From: a virus
Lineage: Duplodnaviria > Caudoviricetes
Length of the DNA stretch: 64,000 nt
Reading direction: 5' to 3' (one strand)
Virus record (IMG/VR): IMGVR_UViG_3300032138_000680
Span: 30,675 to 94,674 of that record
Part shown: positions 41,662 to 49,798 of the stretch, piece by piece
How positions within the stretch are numbered: position 1 is the stretch's first letter
Layout: every line of letters starts with the position of its first letter
Translations under genes and position numbers: made by a program
The notes under the pieces: generated by a model
What the model saw: only the letters and a program-made list of their open reading frames with translations
Databases searched by the model: none
Told to the model about the DNA's origin: nothing

Positions 41662-42605
41662 ATATTAATACTCTTTTTTGGTTTACCTTTCAGCTTATAT
41701 CTCATTAAGTCTGAAAATTTCATTTTCTCTGTTTCTTTTAATAACGGAATAACATTTTCAAATCCCAAGTCTGATGGGTCTTTTTCCGGCAAATTAACAA
41801 AATATACATCAATATCATTCTTCATAAATTCTTCAACCATTTTTAGAGAATCTAATATAGCGTCTCTATCTAAAGATATATATATCTGTTTTACTTTTTT
41901 CTCAATAATTTTCCGTCTGAGATTTGATAGTATTGTTTTTCCAAATAAAGGGATGGCATTTCGTTTAATTGCAATTGCATCAAACGGGCCTTCACATAAA
42001 ACTATTGGTTCATCCCAATTTATAAATAACTCAAATCCAACAACATCTTTCGGTGTCGGTGAATTTCTATATTTCATTTTACTCTGAAATATATCTCTAC
42101 CTACAAAAAAATTTAACTGTCCATCTTCACTATACGATGGAATAATAACTCTATTTGTATAGAGTCCTTGGTCACAATAACCAATATTATATTTTAATAT
42201 ATCCTCGTATGTAATTCCTCGTCTTTGTAAATACATCATTGCATTTTTATAAACGGGTGATGGATGTTTGTATACCAAAGATAAAAACTCCTTTGGTAAT
42301 TCTACCTTTCCTTTTTTCCTTACTTCCTTACTTTCATATCCATACGAAATTTCATCTACTATGCCACGCAATTCTCTAAATTGTTCTTGTGTGGCATTTA
42401 ATTTTTTAAATAACTGAAATAAATTATGTCCGCCCGCATTAGAAACCCAACAATGCCATTTACCTGTAACTATATTAATTTGTAATTTTGGTTTGTGGTG
42501 TGAAACAAATGGACTCCAATACATATACTCATTCTGTTTCTTGAGTTTTTGTCCCTTTGAACCAACTGTTATATCTATAAGATATACTAATTTATTCGAA
42601 TCCAT
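41658..42605 (-). CDS. DnaG-type DNA primase (Toprim) with degenerate zinc finger
   Basis: YL..RGI, RVIIP, GR, KY.NSP, LCEGPFDA, LDRDA, KDP. Confidence 0.85.
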   Translation of the reverse strand: MDSNKLVYLIDITVGSKGQKLKKQNEYMYWSPFVSHHKPKLQINIVTGKWHCWVSNAGGHNLFQLFKKLNATQEQFRELRGIVDEISYGYESKEVRKKGKVELPKEFLSLVYKHPSPVYKNAMMYLQRRGITYEDILKYNIGYCDQGLYTNRVIIPSYSEDGQLNFFVGRDIFQSKMKYRNSPTPKDVVGFELFINWDEPIVLCEGPFDAIAIKRNAIPLFGKTILSNLRRKIIEKKVKQIYISLDRDAILDSLKMVEEFMKNDIDVYFVNLPEKDPSDLGFENVIPLLKETEKMKFSDLMRYKLKGKPKKSINI

Positions 42606-43762
42606 TATAAGCTACTCGGTTGTAATTTACCTGGTAACCAAACACCATCTTCTGATTTATTATAAACACTCAAAAGTTTATCTCTCCACTCAATTTCACT
42701 TGAAAATTTTGATAAATATTCTCTAAGTTTCTCTAAATAAATATCTCTTTCTTTTACTGAAAGTTCTTTTATTTTACCAACGTGGTTCTCAAATTGTTTA
42801 ACAGTATTTGCCCTAAATGGATAATCCATATCTTTACACCAATCTTTACTTATTATTGGTATTTTACCATAATCTACTGCTTGAAAAATACTATATCCAA
42901 ATGGTTCTTTTACATAAGCCCCATGAAAAATACCCCAATCTTTACTCTGATAAAAATCTTCTACTTTACCTCTTGAATACGGTTCTACTCTTACATTATC
43001 AAATTTTATTTTCTTTTTAGACACATTTTCCCAAACACCAATAGCATCTTCCTTAGTAAGAGCAATCGATTCTATATTTTCTAAATAATGAAAGTTTTTC
43101 CTTGCCTCTGATCTTGCAGCATATCCAACAACATTACTATCTATCGCCTTTAAATTATGTTCAAACTTATAAAAATTTGGAATATGTTGGCCAATATCTT
43201 TCCGTTCATCTACTCCTATCCATACTATTTCATTTGCAACTTCATTCAATCCTTCATGAAACGTAATTCTTTGATTTTGATCAAATATTTCTCTTGCCCT
43301 CCTATAATGAAATTTTCTTTTACTTACACCAGAAGTTTCCCTCTGTGAACTGTGACATACAATACTATCAATATTACCGTACTTTTCAATAACTTCCTTA
43401 GTTTTTCTTCCATATACTGCGGCGAGTGGACATGATAATAAATGAACTTTTCTTGCATTTTTTATTATCTTATCAGTATATTCAGTAGTGGGTAATGAAA
43501 AATAATTTTCTAATTGTAATCCTGGGTATCTCCATTCATACTTATGTTCTGTTCCTGGTCTATCTAAAACTAACACAAACGATTTTGCATATTGTATCCA
43601 ACCATAAGATGATTCAACCTCTATAATAAGAATAGGTTTAACTCTTAAATGTGGAACTACATATCTAATCCAGTTATCAACCCAGAACGACACTCCACCT
43701 ACTGAGAAATCTCCTACTTCTGATGTTACATATACATCATACTCCTGGTCAAAATTAACCAT
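42605..43762 (-). CDS. GT-B (GT4-like) glycosyltransferase; paralog of 13263..14288
   Basis: YDVY..GG..WVDNW, ARSEARK, EPFGYSIFQAVDYGKIPI. Confidence 0.8.
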   Translation of the reverse strand: MVNFDQEYDVYVTSEVGDFSVGGVSFWVDNWIRYVVPHLRVKPILIIEVESSYGWIQYAKSFVLVLDRPGTEHKYEWRYPGLQLENYFSLPTTEYTDKIIKNARKVHLLSCPLAAVYGRKTKEVIEKYGNIDSIVCHSSQRETSGVSKRKFHYRRAREIFDQNQRITFHEGLNEVANEIVWIGVDERKDIGQHIPNFYKFEHNLKAIDSNVVGYAARSEARKNFHYLENIESIALTKEDAIGVWENVSKKKIKFDNVRVEPYSRGKVEDFYQSKDWGIFHGAYVKEPFGYSIFQAVDYGKIPIISKDWCKDMDYPFRANTVKQFENHVGKIKELSVKERDIYLEKLREYLSKFSSEIEWRDKLLSVYNKSEDGVWLPGKLQPSSL

Positions 43763-44621
43763 ATGTTCTCAATTTCATCATTACAATATATTCATCTCCA
43801 AACTTTGTAAAATTAGAACTCTTTGGATAATTAGTAAATTCCACTGATTCCACTATATCATCAACTGCACAAGTTGTTAATTTTCTCTCATTGTATAGAT
43901 TCCAAAATGTATCTGAATCTGGATTATTTTTTTCTATCGGATTACTGAGATTTAACTCATCAATTAAATCTCCATGCTGTCTAATAAATGACCTTGAAAC
44001 TGAAAATACTTTTAATTTTGAAATTTCTTCCTCCAGAAATATATCTACTGCATAACTTATCGGTACATATTTATCAAGTAATTTTTTCACACTATTTTTA
44101 TTAATAACATATGCATGTGCTCCATACCTTGAAACTCCAAACTTGGGAATTACTAAATTTTCTGTAACTTTTTCTCCTGGTACTTCTTGGGTTTTCTTTC
44201 CCAAAAATACAACATCCCAATCATTTAATGAATTTATCTCATCAAGTAGTGTTTGAAATTCAATTCGTGGTTTTCCAAACTCTAGATCCATTTGATTTCT
44301 TACAACTTCTCTTGTAAGAAAAATATCATCTTCTAATATTAAACACGTATCAAGACCACTCTTTAAAAATCTTTTCCATACTTTAATATGAGATAAACTA
44401 CATCCTATAATATTACGAGTCAATACACCATTTGGATCATAATATTCTGTATTAAGTAATCCATCTTTGATTAATTTTCTTACCTTTAACTTTTGTCCGT
44501 CAATAGCATCCACAATTTCATAATCAATCCCCCGTAATGTTTTTTCCATTTTATCCCGTCTTTCTTGACGAGATTTTAAATTGATTACATAAGTCTTATC
44601 AAATCCTATATCAGTAGACAT
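43755..44621 (-). CDS. GT25 glycosyltransferase
   Basis: YVINL..R.ERR, DAIDG, GCSLSH..W, LILEDD, AHAYVI. Confidence 0.88.
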   Translation of the reverse strand: MSTDIGFDKTYVINLKSRQERRDKMEKTLRGIDYEIVDAIDGQKLKVRKLIKDGLLNTEYYDPNGVLTRNIIGCSLSHIKVWKRFLKSGLDTCLILEDDIFLTREVVRNQMDLEFGKPRIEFQTLLDEINSLNDWDVVFLGKKTQEVPGEKVTENLVIPKFGVSRYGAHAYVINKNSVKKLLDKYVPISYAVDIFLEEEISKLKVFSVSRSFIRQHGDLIDELNLSNPIEKNNPDSDTFWNLYNERKLTTCAVDDIVESVEFTNYPKSSNFTKFGDEYIVMMKLRTYG

Positions 44622-44957: not shown

Positions 44958-44990
44958 AACCTTTAATAAATATAACCCTGTTTTGTCAAA

Positions 44991-45383
44991 TTAACTAAAT
45001 TTTCGCTTCCATTTTCTACTATATTCTTTTCGTGCCCATTTTTCTGCTTTTTCTTCAAAAGCGTTGTCATCGTGGAAATCACGACCTTTATTTACGGCTA
45101 TATCACCTGCCTTTTGATATTCCTTTTCATACTTTCTTGCACCCATTGTTTTTCTATCATTTGCGTGATCTATTTCATGTAATACTGTAATTATAAATTC
45201 TTTAATTGAAGAATAACTTTTTTTGAGATTGATTATATCTTTAACCCAATCGTAATCTGCTTTGTTTCCACCTCTAACAGTACCAACTTTTACTTTGGAA
45301 CGGAGCCCGTAATCTTTTACTAATTGGCTTGCAATTTCATGATAATCAATTCTCTCTACTAATAAACTTTTTAATTTTATCAT
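44991..45383 (-). CDS. HExxH zinc metalloprotease-like protein, possible internal head protein
   Basis: VLHEIDH, FEEKAE; N-terminal MIKLKSLLVE leader. Confidence 0.65.
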   Translation of the reverse strand: MIKLKSLLVERIDYHEIASQLVKDYGLRSKVKVGTVRGGNKADYDWVKDIINLKKSYSSIKEFIITVLHEIDHANDRKTMGARKYEKEYQKAGDIAVNKGRDFHDDNAFEEKAEKWARKEYSRKWKRKFS

Positions 45384-45535
45384 TACCTTCTTCCATATAC
45401 AGGTAATTGTGGTCCTTTTGTTTTTTCCTTAGCCAACCACTTTTTGTGTTGAACTGCAGTTCTACCTTCAGTAGCCCACTTTTTATTTAATGCTGCTTTT
45501 TTACGTTTTCTATCTTTTGCTTTACTGTTTGGCAT
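45383..45535 (-). CDS. 50-aa highly basic protein; absent from ORF track
   Basis: MPNSKAKDRKRKKAALNKKWATEGRTAVQHKKWLAKEKTKGPQLPVYGRR; TAATG overlaps at both ends exactly fill the gap. Confidence 0.8.
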   Translation of the reverse strand: MPNSKAKDRKRKKAALNKKWATEGRTAVQHKKWLAKEKTKGPQLPVYGRR

Positions 45536-45978
45536 TAGAACACATCTCCAGACATCGCATCTTGAATTGCCTTTTTAAGATGTTTATTAGTTACATCTAC
45601 AACACCATCCATATCAGCTTTCCAAACTTCTTTCTTTTTTCCATTATGAAATAGTGCAATAGATGGATAATTTCGTATTCTGAGTTTCTTAGCAACTTTT
45701 TTAACTTCTGAATGGTCTACTTTATAAATAACACATCCTTCAAATCCTTTTACTCCATCAAATAATTTCTTATCAAGAGTTGCAAATTGATATGGTGCTG
45801 TAAAATGAATAAGAACAAATCCTTTTGCTATTTTCTTTTTAAAATTGTCATCGGTTAATGATTCTATTGGTGATTTAGGTTTATCTTGTGCGTTTACTAC
45901 GTTTCCACACAATACAATTGTTATTCCAATTACACATAACAATTTAAAACCCCATCTAATTAATTGTGATTTATTCAT
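45535..45978 (-). CDS. Exported thioredoxin-fold protein lacking CxxC
   Basis: Signal peptide; LTDDNF..VLIHFTAPY..YKVD..RIRNYPSIALF.NG. Confidence 0.75.
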   Translation of the reverse strand: MNKSQLIRWGFKLLCVIGITIVLCGNVVNAQDKPKSPIESLTDDNFKKKIAKGFVLIHFTAPYQFATLDKKLFDGVKGFEGCVIYKVDHSEVKKVAKKLRIRNYPSIALFHNGKKKEVWKADMDGVVDVTNKHLKKAIQDAMSGDVF

Positions 45979-45980
45979 AA

Positions 45981-46562
45981 CTATTTATCCCTCTTTCTTC
46001 GTTCAAGTGATTTTATATCGTTTTGTAATTCTTTGATAACATCTTGAAGTTCTTCTATCTTACCATACGCATCATCCATTTCATCTTGTAGACCTTCAAC
46101 ATTATCTTTATATTGTTCATATGAACGAGGCCAGTTATATCCCTCTGGTCTTGATGGATATTCTGCCTCATATAAACTTTTCAAACTTGGAAGTTCTTTT
46201 GCCTCTTGAATATCTGCCTGTAACATATACCACATTCCTACTAATGAAGCAATTCCTGTTGCAGCTGCAATTATTGTTTTAACATCTAATGCAAACTTTG
46301 TTTTCATTACTGCATCTTGACTTATATCTATTGGTTGTGCCACTACTTTTTCCTCTACAATTTCTTCTTTTTCTTCATGCCGAGTATTTAACATCGCATC
46401 TGTTAAATCCGCGACGGTAATTATACCCATTTCAATTAGTATGTCCCCTAACTTCCTATCATCTCCCTGTACTTGTTTTTGGATGGCCTTGGCTAGCTGT
46501 CTCTTTGTAATAACATCTGCCTCCATTAAGAGTTCGCCTAATCTCTGTCCATTCTCTGCCAC
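45981..46562 (-). CDS. MshEN-like N-terminal domain + single TM helix + coiled coil
   Basis: RLGELLMEADVITKRQLAKAIQKQ / KLGDILIEMGIITVADLTDAM; TM IIAAATGIASLVGMWYML; C-terminal heptads. Confidence 0.78.
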   Translation of the reverse strand: MAENGQRLGELLMEADVITKRQLAKAIQKQVQGDDRKLGDILIEMGIITVADLTDAMLNTRHEEKEEIVEEKVVAQPIDISQDAVMKTKFALDVKTIIAAATGIASLVGMWYMLQADIQEAKELPSLKSLYEAEYPSRPEGYNWPRSYEQYKDNVEGLQDEMDDAYGKIEELQDVIKELQNDIKSLERRKRDK

Positions 46563-46565
46563 TTT

Positions 46566-46892
46566 TTATCCCCATTTTCTCTTTTTTCTAAGATGTTTAT
46601 TCCATCTCTTTTTATTAAATCCTTTTTTCCAAGATTTACTACCTTTATGAAAAACAATTACCCTTGGACCAGAATGTATACCCCACCTATAACTCATAGT
46701 AAATCGTGGATCTGACCAATAATGTCCATGTCCATCTACATAAATATTAACTACTTTTGTAGAATCATTAATAACTATTTGTTTGTCTGGTTTTTTATGA
46801 TGTTCGTTGGAATGTCGTTTATATCCAAGTGTACTTCCAAGATTAAAACAAAGTATACCAACTAACATAATTTCAAATACTCCTGGCATCAA
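46566..46892 (-). CDS. Membrane-anchored/exported basic His-rich protein
   Basis: Hydrophobic N-terminus, basic C-terminal tail. Confidence 0.6.
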   Translation of the reverse strand: MMPGVFEIMLVGILCFNLGSTLGYKRHSNEHHKKPDKQIVINDSTKVVNIYVDGHGHYWSDPRFTMSYRWGIHSGPRVIVFHKGSKSWKKGFNKKRWNKHLRKKRKWG

Positions 46893-47509
46893 TGTCCCCC
46901 ATAATCAGAATACGGTGTATTTGCTGTATCCTTCTCTACTTTTAAATTTGTAAATTCTATTCTACCTTCCATATTAGCTTCTGCATATGGATTATAAAAT
47001 ATACCTTCACCTTCACCACTTATTGTCCAACTATCTCCACTTTGACTTATTGTTTCTATATGTGCTTCTCCTGAAACGGCTACATCTGAATCACCAATAA
47101 TTTCCATTCTTACCCATTTACTTGGTTCTCCATGCATACAAGCTCTTGGACATACTGGACATACACTTGGCCATTGATACTGTCCTTCATCGATTGGTAA
47201 TCCATTAGATGTATCACCTTCCCAATCTGTAAATATTACGGCGTAGTGTTCTTTATTTAAGTCTACTCTACTATCTTCCTTTTGAAAGTGAATAACTAAT
47301 ATTTTCTTAACAAATGTTTTTGTAGTATCAAATCCCACATATTCAATTTCTTCAGCAAACGTTGTAATTCGTTGATATTCTGCTTGTACATCTATTTCTT
47401 CACCATTTAACCATAACTTCATTGGATATTCTTCTTCCAATAAATCTTCACAGCTCCATGAACTCCAAGTAAACATTAAAGTTAATACCAAAAATAGTTT
47501 TTTAATCAT
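46889..47509 (-). CDS. Lipoprotein
   Basis: True start MIKKLFLVLTLMFTWSSWS-C-EDLLEEE at 47509; lipobox Cys followed by acidic tract; CPVCPRAC loop. Confidence 0.72.
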   Translation of the reverse strand: MIKKLFLVLTLMFTWSSWSCEDLLEEEYPMKLWLNGEEIDVQAEYQRITTFAEEIEYVGFDTTKTFVKKILVIHFQKEDSRVDLNKEHYAVIFTDWEGDTSNGLPIDEGQYQWPSVCPVCPRACMHGEPSKWVRMEIIGDSDVAVSGEAHIETISQSGDSWTISGEGEGIFYNPYAEANMEGRIEFTNLKVEKDTANTPYSDYGGH

Positions 47510-47510
47510 T

Positions 47511-47591
47511 TTACTTTCCTTTCCCACATTGACAATTTTCACAAGTGCAATTTTCACATTCACAATTTGGATTGTCACAGTTATTTTTCAT
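47511..47591 (-). CDS. 26-aa metallothionein-like Cys-rich peptide; absent from ORF track
   Basis: MKNNCDNPNCECENCTCENCQCGKGK (7 Cys, three CxC); AGGAG RBS 7 nt upstream; stop 1 nt before next ATG. Confidence 0.75.
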   Translation of the reverse strand: MKNNCDNPNCECENCTCENCQCGKGK

Positions 47592-47601
47592 TTTAGTTCT
47601 C

Positions 47602-48015
47602 CTATAATCTTAATCTTTTACGCCAACGGTCATATGTTGCTCCATCGGCCGTCATATATATTTTACTCGAAATCTTATACTGTTTCTTTCCATCACGAGT
47701 AACTTCCCATTCTGCGACTCCATATTTCACACTAAGATTGTGGTCATATGGTATCGTAATTTTTTTATGTTTACCACTTATAAAATCGGACTTAGAAATA
47801 CTTTTAAAGTGTGGAATACTTGTAGATTGTTTTCTTCCACTTTTCTCTGCCTGTTTCTTTAATTGTTGTACTTGTTTGTCAATCTTCTGTGCTTCTTGAG
47901 ATGCCTTCTCTACTTTCTTTAGAAATTTTTCCCATTTACTTTGACCAAAAGTTACATCGGGTAATCCCACCAATAATATTAAACTTAATAGTATGTATTT
48001 CATTTTATAATCCAA
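47602..48015 (-). CDS. Secreted basic protein
   Basis: Signal peptide MKYILLSLILLVG..TFG-Q, coiled coil. Confidence 0.65.
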   Translation of the reverse strand: MDYKMKYILLSLILLVGLPDVTFGQSKWEKFLKKVEKASQEAQKIDKQVQQLKKQAEKSGRKQSTSIPHFKSISKSDFISGKHKKITIPYDHNLSVKYGVAEWEVTRDGKKQYKISSKIYMTADGATYDRWRKRLRL

Positions 48016-49291
48016 GTCCTAAAAATTGATAATTCAAACCAACTTTAATATCATAGGCTGGTCTTTCCCAGTAATCTAAATATTTTCCTTCAACATAGAA
48101 TCCCAAATTTTCTTGTAATTTAAATCCTATAATTGCTCCAAGGTCATAATCCATCCAAATCTCTGTCCCTTTATCTAAAAATTCAAAGGTTTCAGGTTCT
48201 CTTCCTGCCTCATCATGTTCTTTCCACGCAACTGCGTTATGATAAGAATACTTATCTAACCCATAATGATACGGATATAAACTTCCCCATGCATGAATCC
48301 AAAAATTTTCAGTATATTGATACCAATCTAATCCAAGTGATACTGATATTTCTCTTTGACTTCCCAATCCTTTTAACTGTTTATCAAACCAATTTTCTAA
48401 TAATCCTGGAAAATGATATTGATAAAATTCTCTATCAGACATTGCCATTAGATTTCCATCTCTGTCAAACCATCTCCAATCTTGACCTACATATCCTACA
48501 TATTCACCAGTATTATTATCATAAATAGATATTCCACCATCACCAATTCCATCACCATCTATATCACCACTGTATCCTCGGTCATCTACTCCAAATTCAT
48601 CTTCTGCGAAATCCCACCAAGATGAAGTATACCAACTTGAATCAAGAACAGTTGGTGCGAATCCATATGCTGGATGTGTTCTTGCTCCCAGTCCAACTGA
48701 AATATTAAAACTACCACCTTCAGTTTCAAATTCTTTTCTTAATCTTAAATCACCTTGACCATATCTTAAATCTTCCATCTCCATATCTTGATATTTTAAT
48801 TTAAGAATAAACCAATCACCAAGATATCTCAAAAAATATTCTTGTGATTTAAATTGTTCATCCCACCTGCGATTTTCTGAATACTTTAAAAGATACTCAA
48901 ATCCTTTTACTCTGCCTATTGTAGCAGCTTCATTAGGATTTGCTTGACCATTTCCTTTATACCAATCTCCACCTACACCAGCGTTTTTCACACCTCGTTT
49001 TGCTTCATAATGAAATCTGGCAATTTTTCTTATTCCAAATGAAATATCAAAATCTGGTTCTAAATCTCTTTCTTCTTTATGTACAGTTAATTCACCACTT
49101 AACCAATTTTCCATTCCCGTTTCAGGATCAATCATTGAAAGTACATATCTATCATCTTCCCATTTTGGTGAAGATAGATTGAACCCGGCATAAACCGTTG
49201 AATACTTAAAAAAGTTTTGAAATGCTCCTTCTAATCCCTGTCCAACTAAAAAGGATGTTGATAACAACAATCCTACTAATACTTTTCTCAT
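48005..49291 (-). CDS. Outer-membrane beta-barrel-like protein
   Basis: Signal peptide; alternating aromatic strands; terminal YDIKVGLNYQF; DIDGDG Ca-binding-like loop. Confidence 0.65.
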   Translation of the reverse strand: MRKVLVGLLLSTSFLVGQGLEGAFQNFFKYSTVYAGFNLSSPKWEDDRYVLSMIDPETGMENWLSGELTVHKEERDLEPDFDISFGIRKIARFHYEAKRGVKNAGVGGDWYKGNGQANPNEAATIGRVKGFEYLLKYSENRRWDEQFKSQEYFLRYLGDWFILKLKYQDMEMEDLRYGQGDLRLRKEFETEGGSFNISVGLGARTHPAYGFAPTVLDSSWYTSSWWDFAEDEFGVDDRGYSGDIDGDGIGDGGISIYDNNTGEYVGYVGQDWRWFDRDGNLMAMSDREFYQYHFPGLLENWFDKQLKGLGSQREISVSLGLDWYQYTENFWIHAWGSLYPYHYGLDKYSYHNAVAWKEHDEAGREPETFEFLDKGTEIWMDYDLGAIIGFKLQENLGFYVEGKYLDYWERPAYDIKVGLNYQFLGLGL

Positions 49292-49329
49292 TTATATCTC
49301 CAATTAGCGTTGCTTTACAACTATAAATA

Positions 49330-49737
49330 TTAATGTTTTACAGTTTTCTCTTTTGAGACAGCATGCAATCCTTGTTTTTCTTTATCTGTGAGTTTATCAG
49401 TTGATTTTGGCAAATAACCATCTTTCGCCCTTCTTGATCCGGGCGGTAACCTTTTTTCTAAGGTCAGGTCTTTTAGCTTTTCGTTTGGTACAATCATTTT
49501 ACTTCCCCTGTCAGTCATATAAAATGTTGTTTTAGTTATACCGACTCTTACGACTCTAGCTTCACGCCCACTTATATAGATAACATCATCATTATTAAAA
49601 TCATTACCCATAAAGACTTGCATTCCTTGAATCATACTCATTATAGACTCTTTAAAAAAGAATCCTAATGCAAATGTAACAGCTATCCAACCATAATGAC
49701 CTATGAATTGTTCCATAAGCGTTTGTTGGCTGTCCAC
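49330..49737 (-). CDS. Truncated MscS mechanosensitive-channel-like protein
   Basis: TM then F..DD.IYI.G..ARV..VG..KT.......IVPN middle beta domain. Confidence 0.7.
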   Translation of the reverse strand: MDSQQTLMEQFIGHYGWIAVTFALGFFFKESIMSMIQGMQVFMGNDFNNDDVIYISGREARVVRVGITKTTFYMTDRGSKMIVPNEKLKDLTLEKRLPPGSRRAKDGYLPKSTDKLTDKEKQGLHAVSKEKTVKH

Positions 49738-49798
49738 GTTCTTTCTCCTATATTATATTGTTTCTATTATACTAATAAATATAATATATACGGCTAAT

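What the first reader, a model, noticed from the sequence alone, without database searches (positions are those of the whole stretch)
45383..49737. Host-envelope cassette spanning inner membrane, periplasm and outer membrane
Consecutive genes: mini-MscS, OM barrel-like protein, secreted protein, metallothionein-like peptide, lipoprotein, membrane-anchored basic protein, MshEN-TM-coiled coil, exported Cys-less thioredoxin, basic peptide. Nearly all have export signals, unlike the rest of the window, and TATTTAT boxes precede the first two. Inference: a trans-envelope apparatus for lysis control, superinfection exclusion or nutrient/metal uptake.
Basis: partly seen in the sequence, partly recalled or inferred. 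Interest (0 to 1): 0.72.

Follow-up and report, generated by a model that had tools for sequence, protein, structure and literature searches.

The report
Phage envelope gene trio, probably lytic
An uncultured marine jumbo phage of Bacteroidota-type hosts carries a real cluster of exported and membrane proteins whose core (an outer-membrane barrel, an inner-membrane coiled-coil protein and a cysteine-free thioredoxin) recurs in over 100 ocean phage contigs, in 54 of 92 just upstream of an endolysin-type gene, and may be an undescribed way of breaking the host outer membrane.

Summary
Hydrophobic export or membrane signals are enriched in the cassette (6 of 9 genes against 5 of 44 elsewhere, p=0.0013).

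The cassette is not one unit. Its core is three genes: an outer-membrane beta-barrel (48005-49291), a TM plus coiled-coil protein (45981-46562) and an exported thioredoxin fold without CxxC (45535-45978). All three co-occur in every one of about 105 viral loci with room for them, across several lineages with 28-34% barrel identity, in two gene orders.

In 54 of 92 loci outside this phage's clade, an endolysin-type gene of one of four family assignments lies within 2 kb downstream of the trio, often followed by a holin-like gene. My best reading (about 0.45) is an outer-membrane-disruption module that does the job of spanins without being related to them.

This jumbo clade adds an MshEN c-di-GMP-binding domain, a mini-MscS, a lipoprotein and small peptides. 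Here the endolysin is unlinked.

The TATTTAT box is a genome-wide promoter-like motif, not cassette-specific. No function was tested, and complex prediction gave no answer. No GenBank phage record carries the trio. This scan had already flagged the same trio on other DNA.

The parts
49330..49737 (-). Mini-MscS-like protein (135 aa): one hydrophobic helix equivalent to MscS TM3, the beta domain and a basic tail. It has its own TATTTAT box. It is an accessory gene, present in most but not all relatives in the jumbo clade.
   Evidence: Pfam PF00924 2.7e-7 over residues 31-88. NCBIfam MscS 5.6e-4, far below the cut-off. PDB MscS chains align over TM3 plus the beta domain at E 0.08-0.14. 271 homologs of 129-144 aa in marine metagenomes. 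Absent in L002, L003, L010, L011, L014 and L016.
48005..49291 (-). Outer-membrane beta-barrel protein (428 aa, no Cys) with an SPI signal peptide ending ...LVG|QG. Core member 1 of the trio.
   Evidence: AF2 on a 37-sequence alignment: pLDDT 72.6, pTM 0.67. Foldseek top hits are all OM barrels. VIA-wide: Tsx Z 14.8, EstA/NalP barrels, KdgM, NanC, LpxR, OMPLA. Distant homologs end in ...NY(L/T/Q)(I/F)F. No Pfam or PHROG family. 317+ close and 187 representative homologs; ESM Atlas labels the nearest clusters 100% Viruses, and the sources are ocean metagenomes and viromes.
47602..48015 (-). Exported Lys-rich protein (about 133 aa from MKYILL..., cleavage TFG|QS). Accessory; present in only 4 relatives, and at another position in one of them.
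   Evidence: The PHROG Rz-like spanin hit (E 0.028) is not significant.
47511..47591 (-). Cys-rich micro-ORF (26 aa, 7 Cys, C-x-C-x-x-C repeats, no signal peptide) with an AGGAG ribosome site. Conserved in the jumbo clade with a variable number of repeats.
   Evidence: Found in L001, L003-L010, L013, L018 and L020, always within the cassette.
46889..47509 (-). Lipoprotein (206 aa from MIKK..., Cys+1 followed by acidic residues). All-beta fold with no clear PDB match. The CPVCPRACMHG loop is a clade-specific insertion. A recurrent accessory of the trio.
   Evidence: Lipoboxes ALGC, FFGC and FLGC in relatives. In a lineage with about 30% identity it sits exactly between the barrel and coiled-coil genes. 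AF2 pLDDT 75.2. Foldseek best hit E 0.013.
46566..46892 (-). N-terminal TM helix plus a basic domain (108 aa, pI 10.4). Accessory; found only in L001 and L020.
45981..46562 (-). Bitopic inner-membrane protein: cytoplasmic MshEN c-di-GMP-binding domain (residues 7-57), TM (about 96-114), conserved LQADIxEAKELP motif and a periplasmic coiled coil. Core member 2 of the trio. The MshEN domain occurs only in the jumbo clade.
   Evidence: NCBIfam NF053729 2.5e-14, 52.8 bits against a cut-off of 38. PDB PilB 4.6e-8, MshE 1.2e-3. In other lineages the family is 91-126 aa without MshEN (alignment A5). No Cys in 36 of 37 members.
45535..45978 (-). Exported thioredoxin-fold protein without CxxC (147 aa, cleavage VNA|QD). 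Invariant cis-Pro and a C-terminal aromatic residue. Core member 3 of the trio; always directly follows the coiled-coil gene.
   Evidence: Pfam Thioredoxin 5.2e-10. The PDB alignment shows the WCGHC segment deleted. 0 of 45 family members have CxxC and 45 of 45 end in F, Y or W. The gap from the coiled-coil gene to this gene is 15 nt or less, or an overlap, in 105 of 105 loci.
45383..45535 (-). Basic 50-aa peptide (pI 11.2, no TM). Its start overlaps the thioredoxin gene's end by 1 nt and its end overlaps the zincin gene's start. Conserved in 8 relatives in the jumbo clade.
44991..45383 (-). ArdC-type zincin metallopeptidase (HEIDH, 130 aa). Last gene of the same gap-free run; probably not part of the envelope function.
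   Evidence: Pfam MPTase-PolyVal 3.8e-5. Homologs carry PF18818 and one is named antirestriction protein ArdC. No intergenic gap over 23 nt between 49291 and 44991; the next TATTTAT box is at 44966.
49323..49329 (-). TATTTAT box upstream of the barrel gene. A second copy at 49775-49781 lies upstream of the mini-MscS gene.
   Evidence: The same motif TATTTAT(T/A)A lies in 9 of 16 intergenic gaps across the window.

Best explanation
The cassette is built around a phage-specific envelope trio, made by a phage of a Bacteroidota host.
- An outer-membrane beta-barrel of the 12-stranded type.
- A small inner-membrane protein whose C-terminal coiled coil lies in the periplasm.
- A soluble periplasmic thioredoxin-fold protein that has lost its redox cysteines.

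I propose that the three form a link between the inner and outer membranes. After the endolysin has removed the cell wall, this link would destabilise or fuse the outer membrane. That is the role spanins play in other phages, here with an unrelated set of parts.

Shown: the folds and topologies, the strict co-occurrence and tight coupling of the three genes, their position just upstream of an endolysin-type gene in 54 of 92 loci from other phage lineages, and host-type signals.

Inferred: physical contact between the three proteins, timing, and the lytic role itself.

In this jumbo-phage clade the inner-membrane protein has gained a cytoplasmic MshEN domain. This suggests, by inference only, that host c-di-GMP modulates the module. 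The clade has also collected variable accessory envelope genes: mini-MscS, lipoprotein, Cys-rich peptide, a secreted protein and basic proteins.
For: 1. Co-occurrence. Among 113 loci with a barrel ORF, every locus with room carries all three genes. Orders are barrel-cc-trx (68 loci) and cc-trx-barrel (12), with variants. Lineages share only 28-34% barrel identity, and contigs range from 25 to 216 kb.
2. Coupling. The thioredoxin gene follows the coiled-coil gene with a gap of 15 nt or less, or an overlap, in 105 of 105 loci.
3. Lysis context. Outside the jumbo clade, 54 of 92 loci have an endolysin-type gene within 2 kb downstream. The recognised peptidoglycan hydrolases (32 loci) lie within 700 nt in 31 of them. 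Four family assignments fill this place: Peptidase_M15_3, PG_binding_1+Amidase_2, DUF5675/Tlde1-like, and PHROG endolysin phrog_33083. 34 loci also have a holin-like gene. Replacement of the enzyme by members of different families at a fixed place argues for a shared functional cassette.
4. Topology. The trio covers both membranes and the periplasm: signal peptide plus OM-barrel fold, an N-in TM with a periplasmic coiled coil, and an exported thioredoxin fold.
5. Phage-specific. There is no hit in 50,697 GenBank phage records. Only 6 MAG contigs hit among 185,579 species genomes.
6. A known gap. Spanins were not found in 91 of 677 phages, including Bacteroides and Croceibacter phages (PMC6139136).
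7. Host type. Gln follows the predicted SPI cleavage site in the barrel, the secreted protein and the thioredoxin, and in 40 of 45 family members (Q-rule, PMC5837995). K-(D/E)2 follows the lipoprotein Cys in relatives (PMC5080379). T9SS sorting domains occur in neighbouring genes.
8. The TATTTAT box is shared with structural genes, which suggests late expression (inference).
Against: - No experiment and no cultured phage carries the trio, so the function rests on gene neighbourhood.
- In this window's own clade the trio is not next to lysis genes. It lies between tail-type genes and an ArdC-type zincin, RusA and primase. The only recognised endolysin in a complete 216-kb relative (GH108) lies about 52 kb away.
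- 38 of 92 loci in other lineages show no recognised lysis gene nearby. The 92 loci are not independent lineages.
- The periplasmic part of the core coiled-coil protein is only about 55-80 residues.
- There are no periplasmic cysteines, whereas about 96% of two-component spanins have them (PMC6139136).
- PHROG spanin hits are insignificant (E 0.03-0.04).
- Ribonucleotide reductase genes neighbour the trio in 8 of 18 representative loci, and the best fold match is the nucleoside channel Tsx. Both would suit a different role.
Confidence: 0.45

Rival explanations
1. Envelope remodelling for superinfection exclusion or receptor masking. The barrel, inserted in the host outer membrane, would block or replace a receptor or alter the surface, in the way lambda Lom/Cor or T5 Llp do. 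The thioredoxin-fold protein would act as its periplasmic chaperone, and the inner-membrane protein as an anchor or signal relay.
For: All products go to the envelope. The cassette in the jumbo clade is a hot-spot of variable exported genes, including a lipoprotein with a surface-export-like signal, as expected of conflict genes. In this window the trio is not linked to lysis genes.
Against: Exclusion genes are usually single, fast-evolving and patchy. This trio is strictly co-inherited and well conserved; the coiled-coil core shows 75% mean column identity within one lineage. It is fixed upstream of endolysins in other lineages. There is no match to any PADLOC defence family.
Confidence: 0.17
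2. An uptake channel as an auxiliary metabolic function. The barrel would be a Tsx-like nucleoside or small-solute channel that feeds phage DNA synthesis, with the other two proteins helping its assembly.
For: The best structural match is the nucleoside channel Tsx (Z 14.8, rmsd 3.7 over 197 residues). Ribonucleotide reductase genes flank the trio in 8 of 18 representative loci, in two arrangements. Conserved Arg, Lys and Glu residues could line a pore.
Against: The Tsx match is within about 1 Z unit of unrelated 12-stranded barrels (EstA, KdgM, NanC) at 9% identity, so it shows only the barrel class. A channel would not need an obligate inner-membrane coiled-coil partner. The RNR adjacency is confined to one lineage, in which the endolysin is also adjacent.
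Confidence: 0.1
3. A lysis-timing or signalling device rather than the disruptor itself. The inner-membrane protein would relay a cytoplasmic signal (c-di-GMP through MshEN in this clade) to the periplasm to delay or trigger lysis, comparable in logic to T4 RI/RIII lysis inhibition. The mini-MscS would act as a holin-like or depolarising pore.
For: The MshEN domain passes the curated NCBIfam cut-off. Its placement on the cytoplasmic side of a bitopic protein fits a relay. The mini-MscS keeps the pore helix and beta domain but lacks the tension-sensing helices. The lysis-cassette context also fits.
Against: MshEN and the mini-MscS occur only in the jumbo clade, so they cannot explain the universal trio. 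The short N-terminus of the core protein (about 15 residues) leaves little to sense with. No holin family is matched in the window.
Confidence: 0.13
4. No joint function beyond the trio. The nine genes would be a chance accumulation of unrelated small morons at a module boundary, kept together only because the related genomes are collinear.
For: Among 21 relatives the whole region from the tail genes to the primase is collinear, and the accessory genes vary in presence and order. Complex prediction gave no support. See Tried and rejected.
Against: For the three core genes this is excluded by their co-occurrence in distant, non-collinear lineages and by the two gene orders. The lipoprotein also recurs inside the trio in a second lineage. 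The enrichment of export signals is significant.
Confidence: 0.1

Closest known systems
Two-component spanins (lambda Rz/Rz1, T4 PseT.3/PseT.2; Kongari et al. 2018, PMC6139136)
   Same: An inner-membrane protein with an N-terminal TM and a periplasmic coiled coil is paired with an outer-membrane component. Its size is close to T4 PseT.3 (117 aa). In many lineages the genes sit beside the endolysin and holin genes. Together the products would span the envelope.
   Different: The outer-membrane partner is a 350-430-aa beta-barrel with an SPI signal, not a small lipoprotein. There is an obligatory third, thioredoxin-fold component. There are no periplasmic cysteines, no significant sequence similarity (PHROG E 0.03-0.04), and no embedded or overlapped gene architecture.
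Disruptin (phiKT gp28 cationic peptide; bioRxiv 10.1101/515445)
   Same: An alternative route to outer-membrane disruption, outside the spanins, in a phage that lacks spanins. The window also encodes a 50-aa basic peptide right after the trio.
   Different: The trio consists of folded, exported proteins. The 50-aa peptide is very hydrophilic (about 28% hydrophobic residues), has no obvious amphipathic design, and is confined to the jumbo clade.
12-stranded outer-membrane barrels (Tsx, KdgM/NanC, autotransporter translocators, OMPLA, LpxR)
   Same: Predicted fold class and size of the barrel core (VIA Z 12-15). Signal peptide and a C-terminal aromatic residue in distant homologs.
   Different: Sequence identity is 7-13%. 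There is a large insertion (about residues 208-310) with helices. No conserved catalytic His/Ser/Asp set was seen in the alignment. No Pfam family is matched.
MshEN c-di-GMP receptor domain (V. cholerae MshE, PilB, NfrB; Wang et al. 2016, PMC5013675)
   Same: Two tandem 24-residue motifs. Passes NCBIfam NF053729. Aligns with PilB and MshE N-domains.
   Different: It is fused to a TM helix and a periplasmic coiled coil in a phage protein, not to an ATPase or a glycosyltransferase. The first motif has Asp where G/A/S is expected.
MscS mechanosensitive channel
   Same: Pore-lining TM3 and the beta domain are retained (Pfam PF00924).
   Different: It lacks TM1-TM2 and the C-terminal alpha-beta cage, and is 135 aa against about 286 aa.

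Membership tests
Two-component spanin | i-spanin: N-terminal TM (N-in) with a periplasmic coiled-coil domain | tested here: met
   The core family has about 15 cytoplasmic residues, a TM segment and a 55-80-aa helical region with coiled-coil-type matches.
Two-component spanin | o-spanin: a small outer-membrane lipoprotein (lipobox) encoded within, overlapping or next to the i-spanin gene | tested here: not met
   The invariant OM partner is a beta-barrel with an SPI-type signal. A lipoprotein is present in only 20 of about 113 loci, and its mature form is 165-205 aa.
Two-component spanin | Sequence membership in a known spanin family | tested here: not met
   The only PHROG Rz-like spanin hits are E 0.028 (secreted protein) and 0.04 (coiled coil).
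Two-component spanin | Location in the lysis cassette with endolysin and holin | tested here: inconclusive
   Met in 54 of 92 loci from other lineages. Not met in this window or its clade; the GH108 endolysin lies 52 kb away in a complete relative.
Two-component spanin | Periplasmic cysteines for intermolecular disulfides (about 96% of two-component spanins) | tested here: not met
   No Cys in 36 of 37 coiled-coil proteins; 19 of 37 barrels have none.
Outer-membrane beta-barrel protein | Cleavable signal peptide, closed antiparallel barrel, C-terminal aromatic beta-signal | tested here: met
   Signal MRKVLVGLLLSTSFLVG|Q. AF2 model with OM barrels as every top match. Distant homologs end in F or Y. 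In the window's clade NYQF is followed by 3-5 extra residues.
Tsx nucleoside channel | Sequence homology or nucleoside-binding residues | tested here: inconclusive
   Fold likeness only (Z 14.8, 9% identity), tied with other 12-stranded barrels. No Pfam hit.
Thioredoxin | Thioredoxin fold with a cis-Pro loop | tested here: met
   Pfam PF00085 5.2e-10. Invariant P105.
Thioredoxin | CxxC redox active site | tested here: not met
   0 of 45 family members have CxxC. The WCGHC segment is deleted in the alignment to TXNDC5.
MshEN c-di-GMP-binding domain | Two tandem 24-residue RLGxx(L/V/I)(L/V/I)xxG(L/V/I)(L/V/I)xxxxLxxxLxxQ motifs | tested here: met
   NCBIfam NF053729 52.8 bits, cut-off 38. Motif II fits the relaxed pattern of PMC5013675. 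Motif I has D at the G/A/S position.
MshEN c-di-GMP-binding domain | Binding of c-di-GMP | not testable with these tools
   Needs ITC, DRaCALA or a similar assay on residues 1-70.
MscS channel | TM3 pore helix plus beta domain | tested here: met
   PF00924 2.7e-7 over residues 31-88. PDB MscS chains align over residues 18-92.
MscS channel | TM1-TM2 tension sensor and C-terminal alpha-beta cage | tested here: not met
   135 aa with a single hydrophobic segment. The tail after residue 95 is basic and has no match.
Metallothionein-like peptide | Short Cys-rich CxC/CxxC peptide that binds metal | tested here: inconclusive
   The composition and motifs are present and conserved. Metal binding cannot be tested here, and no family matched.

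The most novel reading that the evidence does not exclude
The barrel, coiled-coil and thioredoxin trio would be a third, structurally unprecedented class of phage outer-membrane-disruption machinery, after spanins and disruptins. It would be widespread in marine phages of Bacteroidota. In this jumbo-phage clade the host second messenger c-di-GMP would gate it, through an MshEN domain fused to its inner-membrane subunit.
Probability: 0.25. Interest if true: 0.85.

Novelty: categorically new. Interest (0 to 1): 0.68.

Why it matters
How phages of Bacteroidota breach the outer membrane is unknown. These hosts are among the most abundant bacteria in the surface ocean and the gut, and spanin surveys list several of their phages as lacking spanins.

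A conserved, phage-only three-protein set that sits beside endolysins in many lineages is a concrete candidate for that missing step. It can be tested directly by expression, pull-down and lysis assays.

A beta-barrel and a redox-dead thioredoxin have not been described in any lysis system. If the reading holds, it would also show a phage making use of the host's barrel-assembly pathway.

The MshEN fusion in this clade would be a rare case of a phage protein built to read host c-di-GMP.

Even if the lytic reading is wrong, the trio is an abundant ocean viral gene family with no assigned function. I found 317 or more close barrel homologs and 221 loci in one lineage alone.

Tried and rejected
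- Complex prediction (barrel 20-428, coiled-coil 92-193, thioredoxin 31-147, own alignments) scored 0.01 against a mark of 0.32. The tool's verdict was "no answer", so this counts neither for nor against binding.
- blastn of the cassette and tblastn of two barrels and a coiled-coil protein against 50,697 GenBank phage records found nothing.
- Alignments A1 and A5 were too diverse for pattern scans. A narrower alignment (A6) found only 6 MAG contigs. Three are in one Woesearchaeota MAG and one in a Nitrosopelagicus MAG, which are probably mis-binned phage DNA. Two are in Bacteroidota MAGs.
- I considered the ArdC-type zincin (44991-45383) as a hidden endolysin because it occupies the place where endolysins sit in other lineages. 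I rejected this: its homologs carry PF18818 and one is named ArdC.
- Ten peptidoglycan-hydrolase families (Amidase_2, M15_3, M15_4, phage lysozyme, SLT, DUF5675, M23, VanY, NlpC/P60, GH25) were not found in this contig or in a complete relative. The DUF5675 search had no positive control. Only GH108 was found, far from the trio.
- The lipoprotein model gave no clear PDB match by Foldseek (best: LpqH, E 0.013). A VIA-wide search for it never finished.
- PADLOC gave no meaningful hit.
- RNA-library contigs from two studies cover parts of the cassette at 100% identity. They are assembled contigs, so DNA carry-over cannot be excluded, and they show neither strand, starts nor timing.
- A sigma-70 promoter scan was at the chance level (47 found, 45.8 expected).
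- The L024 gene upstream of the trio looked SLT-like by eye, but neither Pfam nor PHROG gave it a lysis assignment.

Full report
CONTEXT

The window is bases 30675-94674 of a 94.7-kb IMG/VR viral contig that CheckV rates 31% complete. G+C is about 31% and every gene lies on the minus strand. The window holds baseplate genes (gp25, wedge), a 3403-aa fibre-like protein, a very large glycosyltransferase and sugar-modification cluster, an SMC/Rad50-like protein and a primase. A relative of 216 kb is rated 100% complete, so this is a jumbo-type tailed phage. The stretch occurs almost letter for letter in marine metagenomes from at least nine studies.

THE OBSERVATION

- **Mini-MscS, 49330-49737.** Matches the Pfam MscS beta-domain (2.7e-7). 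It aligns with solved MscS chains over TM3 plus the beta domain only.
- **Barrel, 48005-49291 (428 aa).** Has no Pfam or PHROG family. An AlphaFold2 model built on 37 homologs (pLDDT 72.6) matches only outer-membrane barrels. The best matches are the 12-stranded ones: Tsx at Z 14.8, then EstA, NalP, KdgM, NanC, LpxR and OMPLA.
- **"Metallothionein-like peptide", 47511-47591.** A separate 26-aa ORF with 7 Cys and its own AGGAG site. A version with a variable number of CxNC repeats is present in 13 relatives.
- **Lipoprotein.** Really starts at 47509. Its relatives carry canonical lipoboxes.
- **MshEN protein, 45981-46562.** Residues 7-57 pass the curated NCBIfam model for the MshE-type c-di-GMP-binding domain (52.8 bits, cut-off 38). 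They align with PilB and MshE N-domains.
- **Thioredoxin, 45535-45978.** Matches Pfam Thioredoxin (5e-10), but the WCGHC segment is deleted.

A crude hydropathy test finds an N-terminal h-region or TM segment in 6 of 9 cassette genes against 5 of 44 others (p=0.0013).

The TATTTAT observation needs correcting. The heptamer is not enriched in the window (52 found, 59 expected). It does lie in 9 of the 16 intergenic gaps, including those ahead of structural genes, the giant fibre gene and the RusA-like gene. It is therefore a promoter-like motif of the whole phage. It splits the cassette into the mini-MscS gene alone and a gap-free run from the barrel to the ArdC-type zincin at 44991.

WHAT IS CONSERVED

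In 21 related IMG/VR loci the whole region from the tail genes to the primase is collinear, so synteny among them proves little. Within that frame the following genes come and go or move:
- the mini-MscS
- the secreted protein
- the lipoprotein
- the basic TM protein
- the basic peptide

The decisive result came from distant barrel homologs (28-34% identity), found with a full-library HMMER search and traced into IMG/VR.
- 113 loci have a barrel ORF, and every one with room also encodes homologs of the thioredoxin and of the TM plus coiled-coil half of the MshEN protein.
- The order is barrel-cc-trx in 68 loci and cc-trx-barrel in 12.
- The thioredoxin gene follows the coiled-coil gene with 15 nt or less between them in 105 of 105 cases.

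Each of the three families has distinctive conserved features.
- The coiled-coil family is 91-126 aa outside this clade. It is strongly conserved (LKTIG..MWF.LQADI.EAKELP...EYDLKDELIR) and has no cysteines.
- The thioredoxin family never has CxxC, keeps the cis-proline, and always ends in F, Y or W.
- The MshEN domain and the mini-MscS occur only in the jumbo clade.

The lipoprotein recurs in a second lineage, exactly between the barrel and coiled-coil genes, so it is a repeated accessory. The trio is absent from 50,697 GenBank phage records. Among 185,579 species genomes it appears in only six MAG contigs.

WHAT IT SITS NEXT TO

I scanned the genes within 3 kb of the trio in 18 representative loci outside the jumbo clade and then annotated all 92 such loci.
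- 32 loci have a recognised peptidoglycan hydrolase within 2 kb downstream, 31 of them within 700 nt. The families are:
  - Peptidase_M15_3
  - PG_binding_1 plus Amidase_2
  - DUF5675/Tlde1-like
- 22 more loci have a protein of PHROG endolysin family 33083 in the same place.
- 34 loci have a holin-like gene next.

Four family assignments taking turns at one position after an invariant trio is the classic sign of a lysis cassette.

The association is not universal. 38 loci show nothing recognisable nearby. In one lineage ribonucleotide reductase genes are also neighbours. The loci are not independent.

In this window's clade the trio is followed by the basic peptide, an ArdC-type zincin, a RusA-like resolvase and the primase. 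Ten peptidoglycan-hydrolase families are missing from the contig and from the complete relative. The relative's GH108 endolysin lies about 52 kb from the trio, with no membrane proteins beside it. Lysis genes in this clade are therefore scattered, as they are in T4.

HOST

Several signals point to Bacteroidota.
- **Q-rule.** The barrel, the secreted protein and the thioredoxin have Gln right after the predicted SPI cleavage site (G|Q, G|Q, A|Q). So do 40 of 45 thioredoxin homologs and 30 of 37 barrels. This is the Bacteroidetes Q-rule (PMC5837995).
- **Lipoprotein export signal.** The lipoprotein Cys is followed by acidic residues. In relatives it is followed by K-(D/E)2, the lipoprotein export signal of that phylum (PMC5080379).
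- **T9SS.** Sorting domains occur among the neighbouring genes in other lineages.
- **MAG hits.** Two of the six are Bacteroidota.

All of this is indirect.

MECHANISM

The parts cover the inner membrane, the periplasm and the outer membrane. The coiled-coil and thioredoxin genes lie close enough for translational coupling, and the set sits upstream of endolysins in many lineages. The most economical reading is a trans-envelope complex that acts after cell-wall breakdown to open the outer membrane. That is the job of spanins, which have not been found in several Bacteroidota phages (PMC6139136).

It is not a spanin by membership:
- the outer-membrane partner is a barrel, not a lipoprotein;
- there is a third component;
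- there are no periplasmic cysteines;
- no spanin family is matched.

What the barrel does is open. It could serve as an anchor, form a pore or interfere with barrel assembly. The thioredoxin's invariant C-terminal aromatic residue is unexplained.

In this clade the MshEN fusion suggests that host c-di-GMP modulates the module. The mini-MscS keeps a pore helix without the tension sensor, so it could be a holin-like or depolarising pore. Both ideas are inference.

I put the lytic reading at about 0.45. The rivals are exclusion or remodelling (0.17), a signalling or timing device (0.13), a Tsx-like uptake channel (0.10), and no joint function beyond the trio (0.10).

LIMITS

- No function was tested.
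- The complex prediction returned no answer.
- RNA-library contigs cover parts of the cassette but cannot show transcription, strand or timing.

EARLIER NOTES OF THIS SCAN

After I had found the trio independently, a look-up showed that earlier reports of this scan describe the same trio on other DNA and reach a similar reading. Two first-reader notes describe near-identical cassettes in relatives. I re-derived co-occurrence and endolysin adjacency here from my own loci. Those notes are not independent evidence.

Noticed in passing
window 1-28050: Very large cluster of glycan genes: GT7 (three copies, with Laminin_G_3), GT25, GT1/GT4, GT9, GT2, FdtA, a DegT aminotransferase, two radical SAM enzymes, methyltransferases and a 2OG oxygenase. 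It lies downstream of a 3403-aa fibre-like gene. Other notes of this scan cover it.
   Followed up: no
window, 9 of 16 intergenic gaps (e.g. 11267, 13256, 24157, 38274, 44966, 49323, 49775, 52691, 63028; minus strand): A TATTTAT(T/A)A motif is concentrated in the short intergenic gaps, 9-80 nt upstream of start codons, while it is not enriched in the window as a whole. It is probably this phage's own promoter element; its class (late or otherwise) is unknown.
   Followed up: partly
alignment A4 (thioredoxin family), last residue; window 45535-45540: All 45 Cys-less thioredoxin homologs end in an aromatic residue (F 33, Y 11, W 1). This resembles the C-terminal signature of outer-membrane proteins. 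It is unexplained.
   Followed up: partly
window 47511-47591 and L001, L003-L010, L013, L018, L020: Conserved Cys-rich micro-ORF (19-31 aa) whose number of C(E/K)NC repeats varies between relatives. It has no signal peptide, so it is presumably cytoplasmic. Its link to the envelope genes is unclear.
   Followed up: partly
L024:3856-6093 compared with window 42605-44621: A 745-aa fusion of GT4, GT25 and a 2OG-oxygenase lies near the trio in a distant lineage. It corresponds to two separate genes (GT25-like, 288 aa, and a 385-aa protein) about 1 kb downstream of the cassette here.
   Followed up: no
L024:9709-10101, L028:10386-10658, L033:9344-9562, window 45383-45535: Very basic small proteins repeatedly follow the trio in different lineages (PHROGs 14910 and 17747, function unknown). 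They are not detectably related to each other.
   Followed up: no
L046:9582-10754 and homologs (cluster c0) in 32 loci: A conserved 365-442-aa protein with no Pfam or PHROG match always follows the endolysin and holin genes downstream of the trio in one large lineage.
   Followed up: no
L122-L124 (PBPJ01 contigs): Three different trio-bearing contigs are binned in one 'Candidatus Woesearchaeota' MAG from the Red Sea, and another in a Nitrosopelagicus MAG. These are most likely phage contigs that were mis-binned.
   Followed up: no
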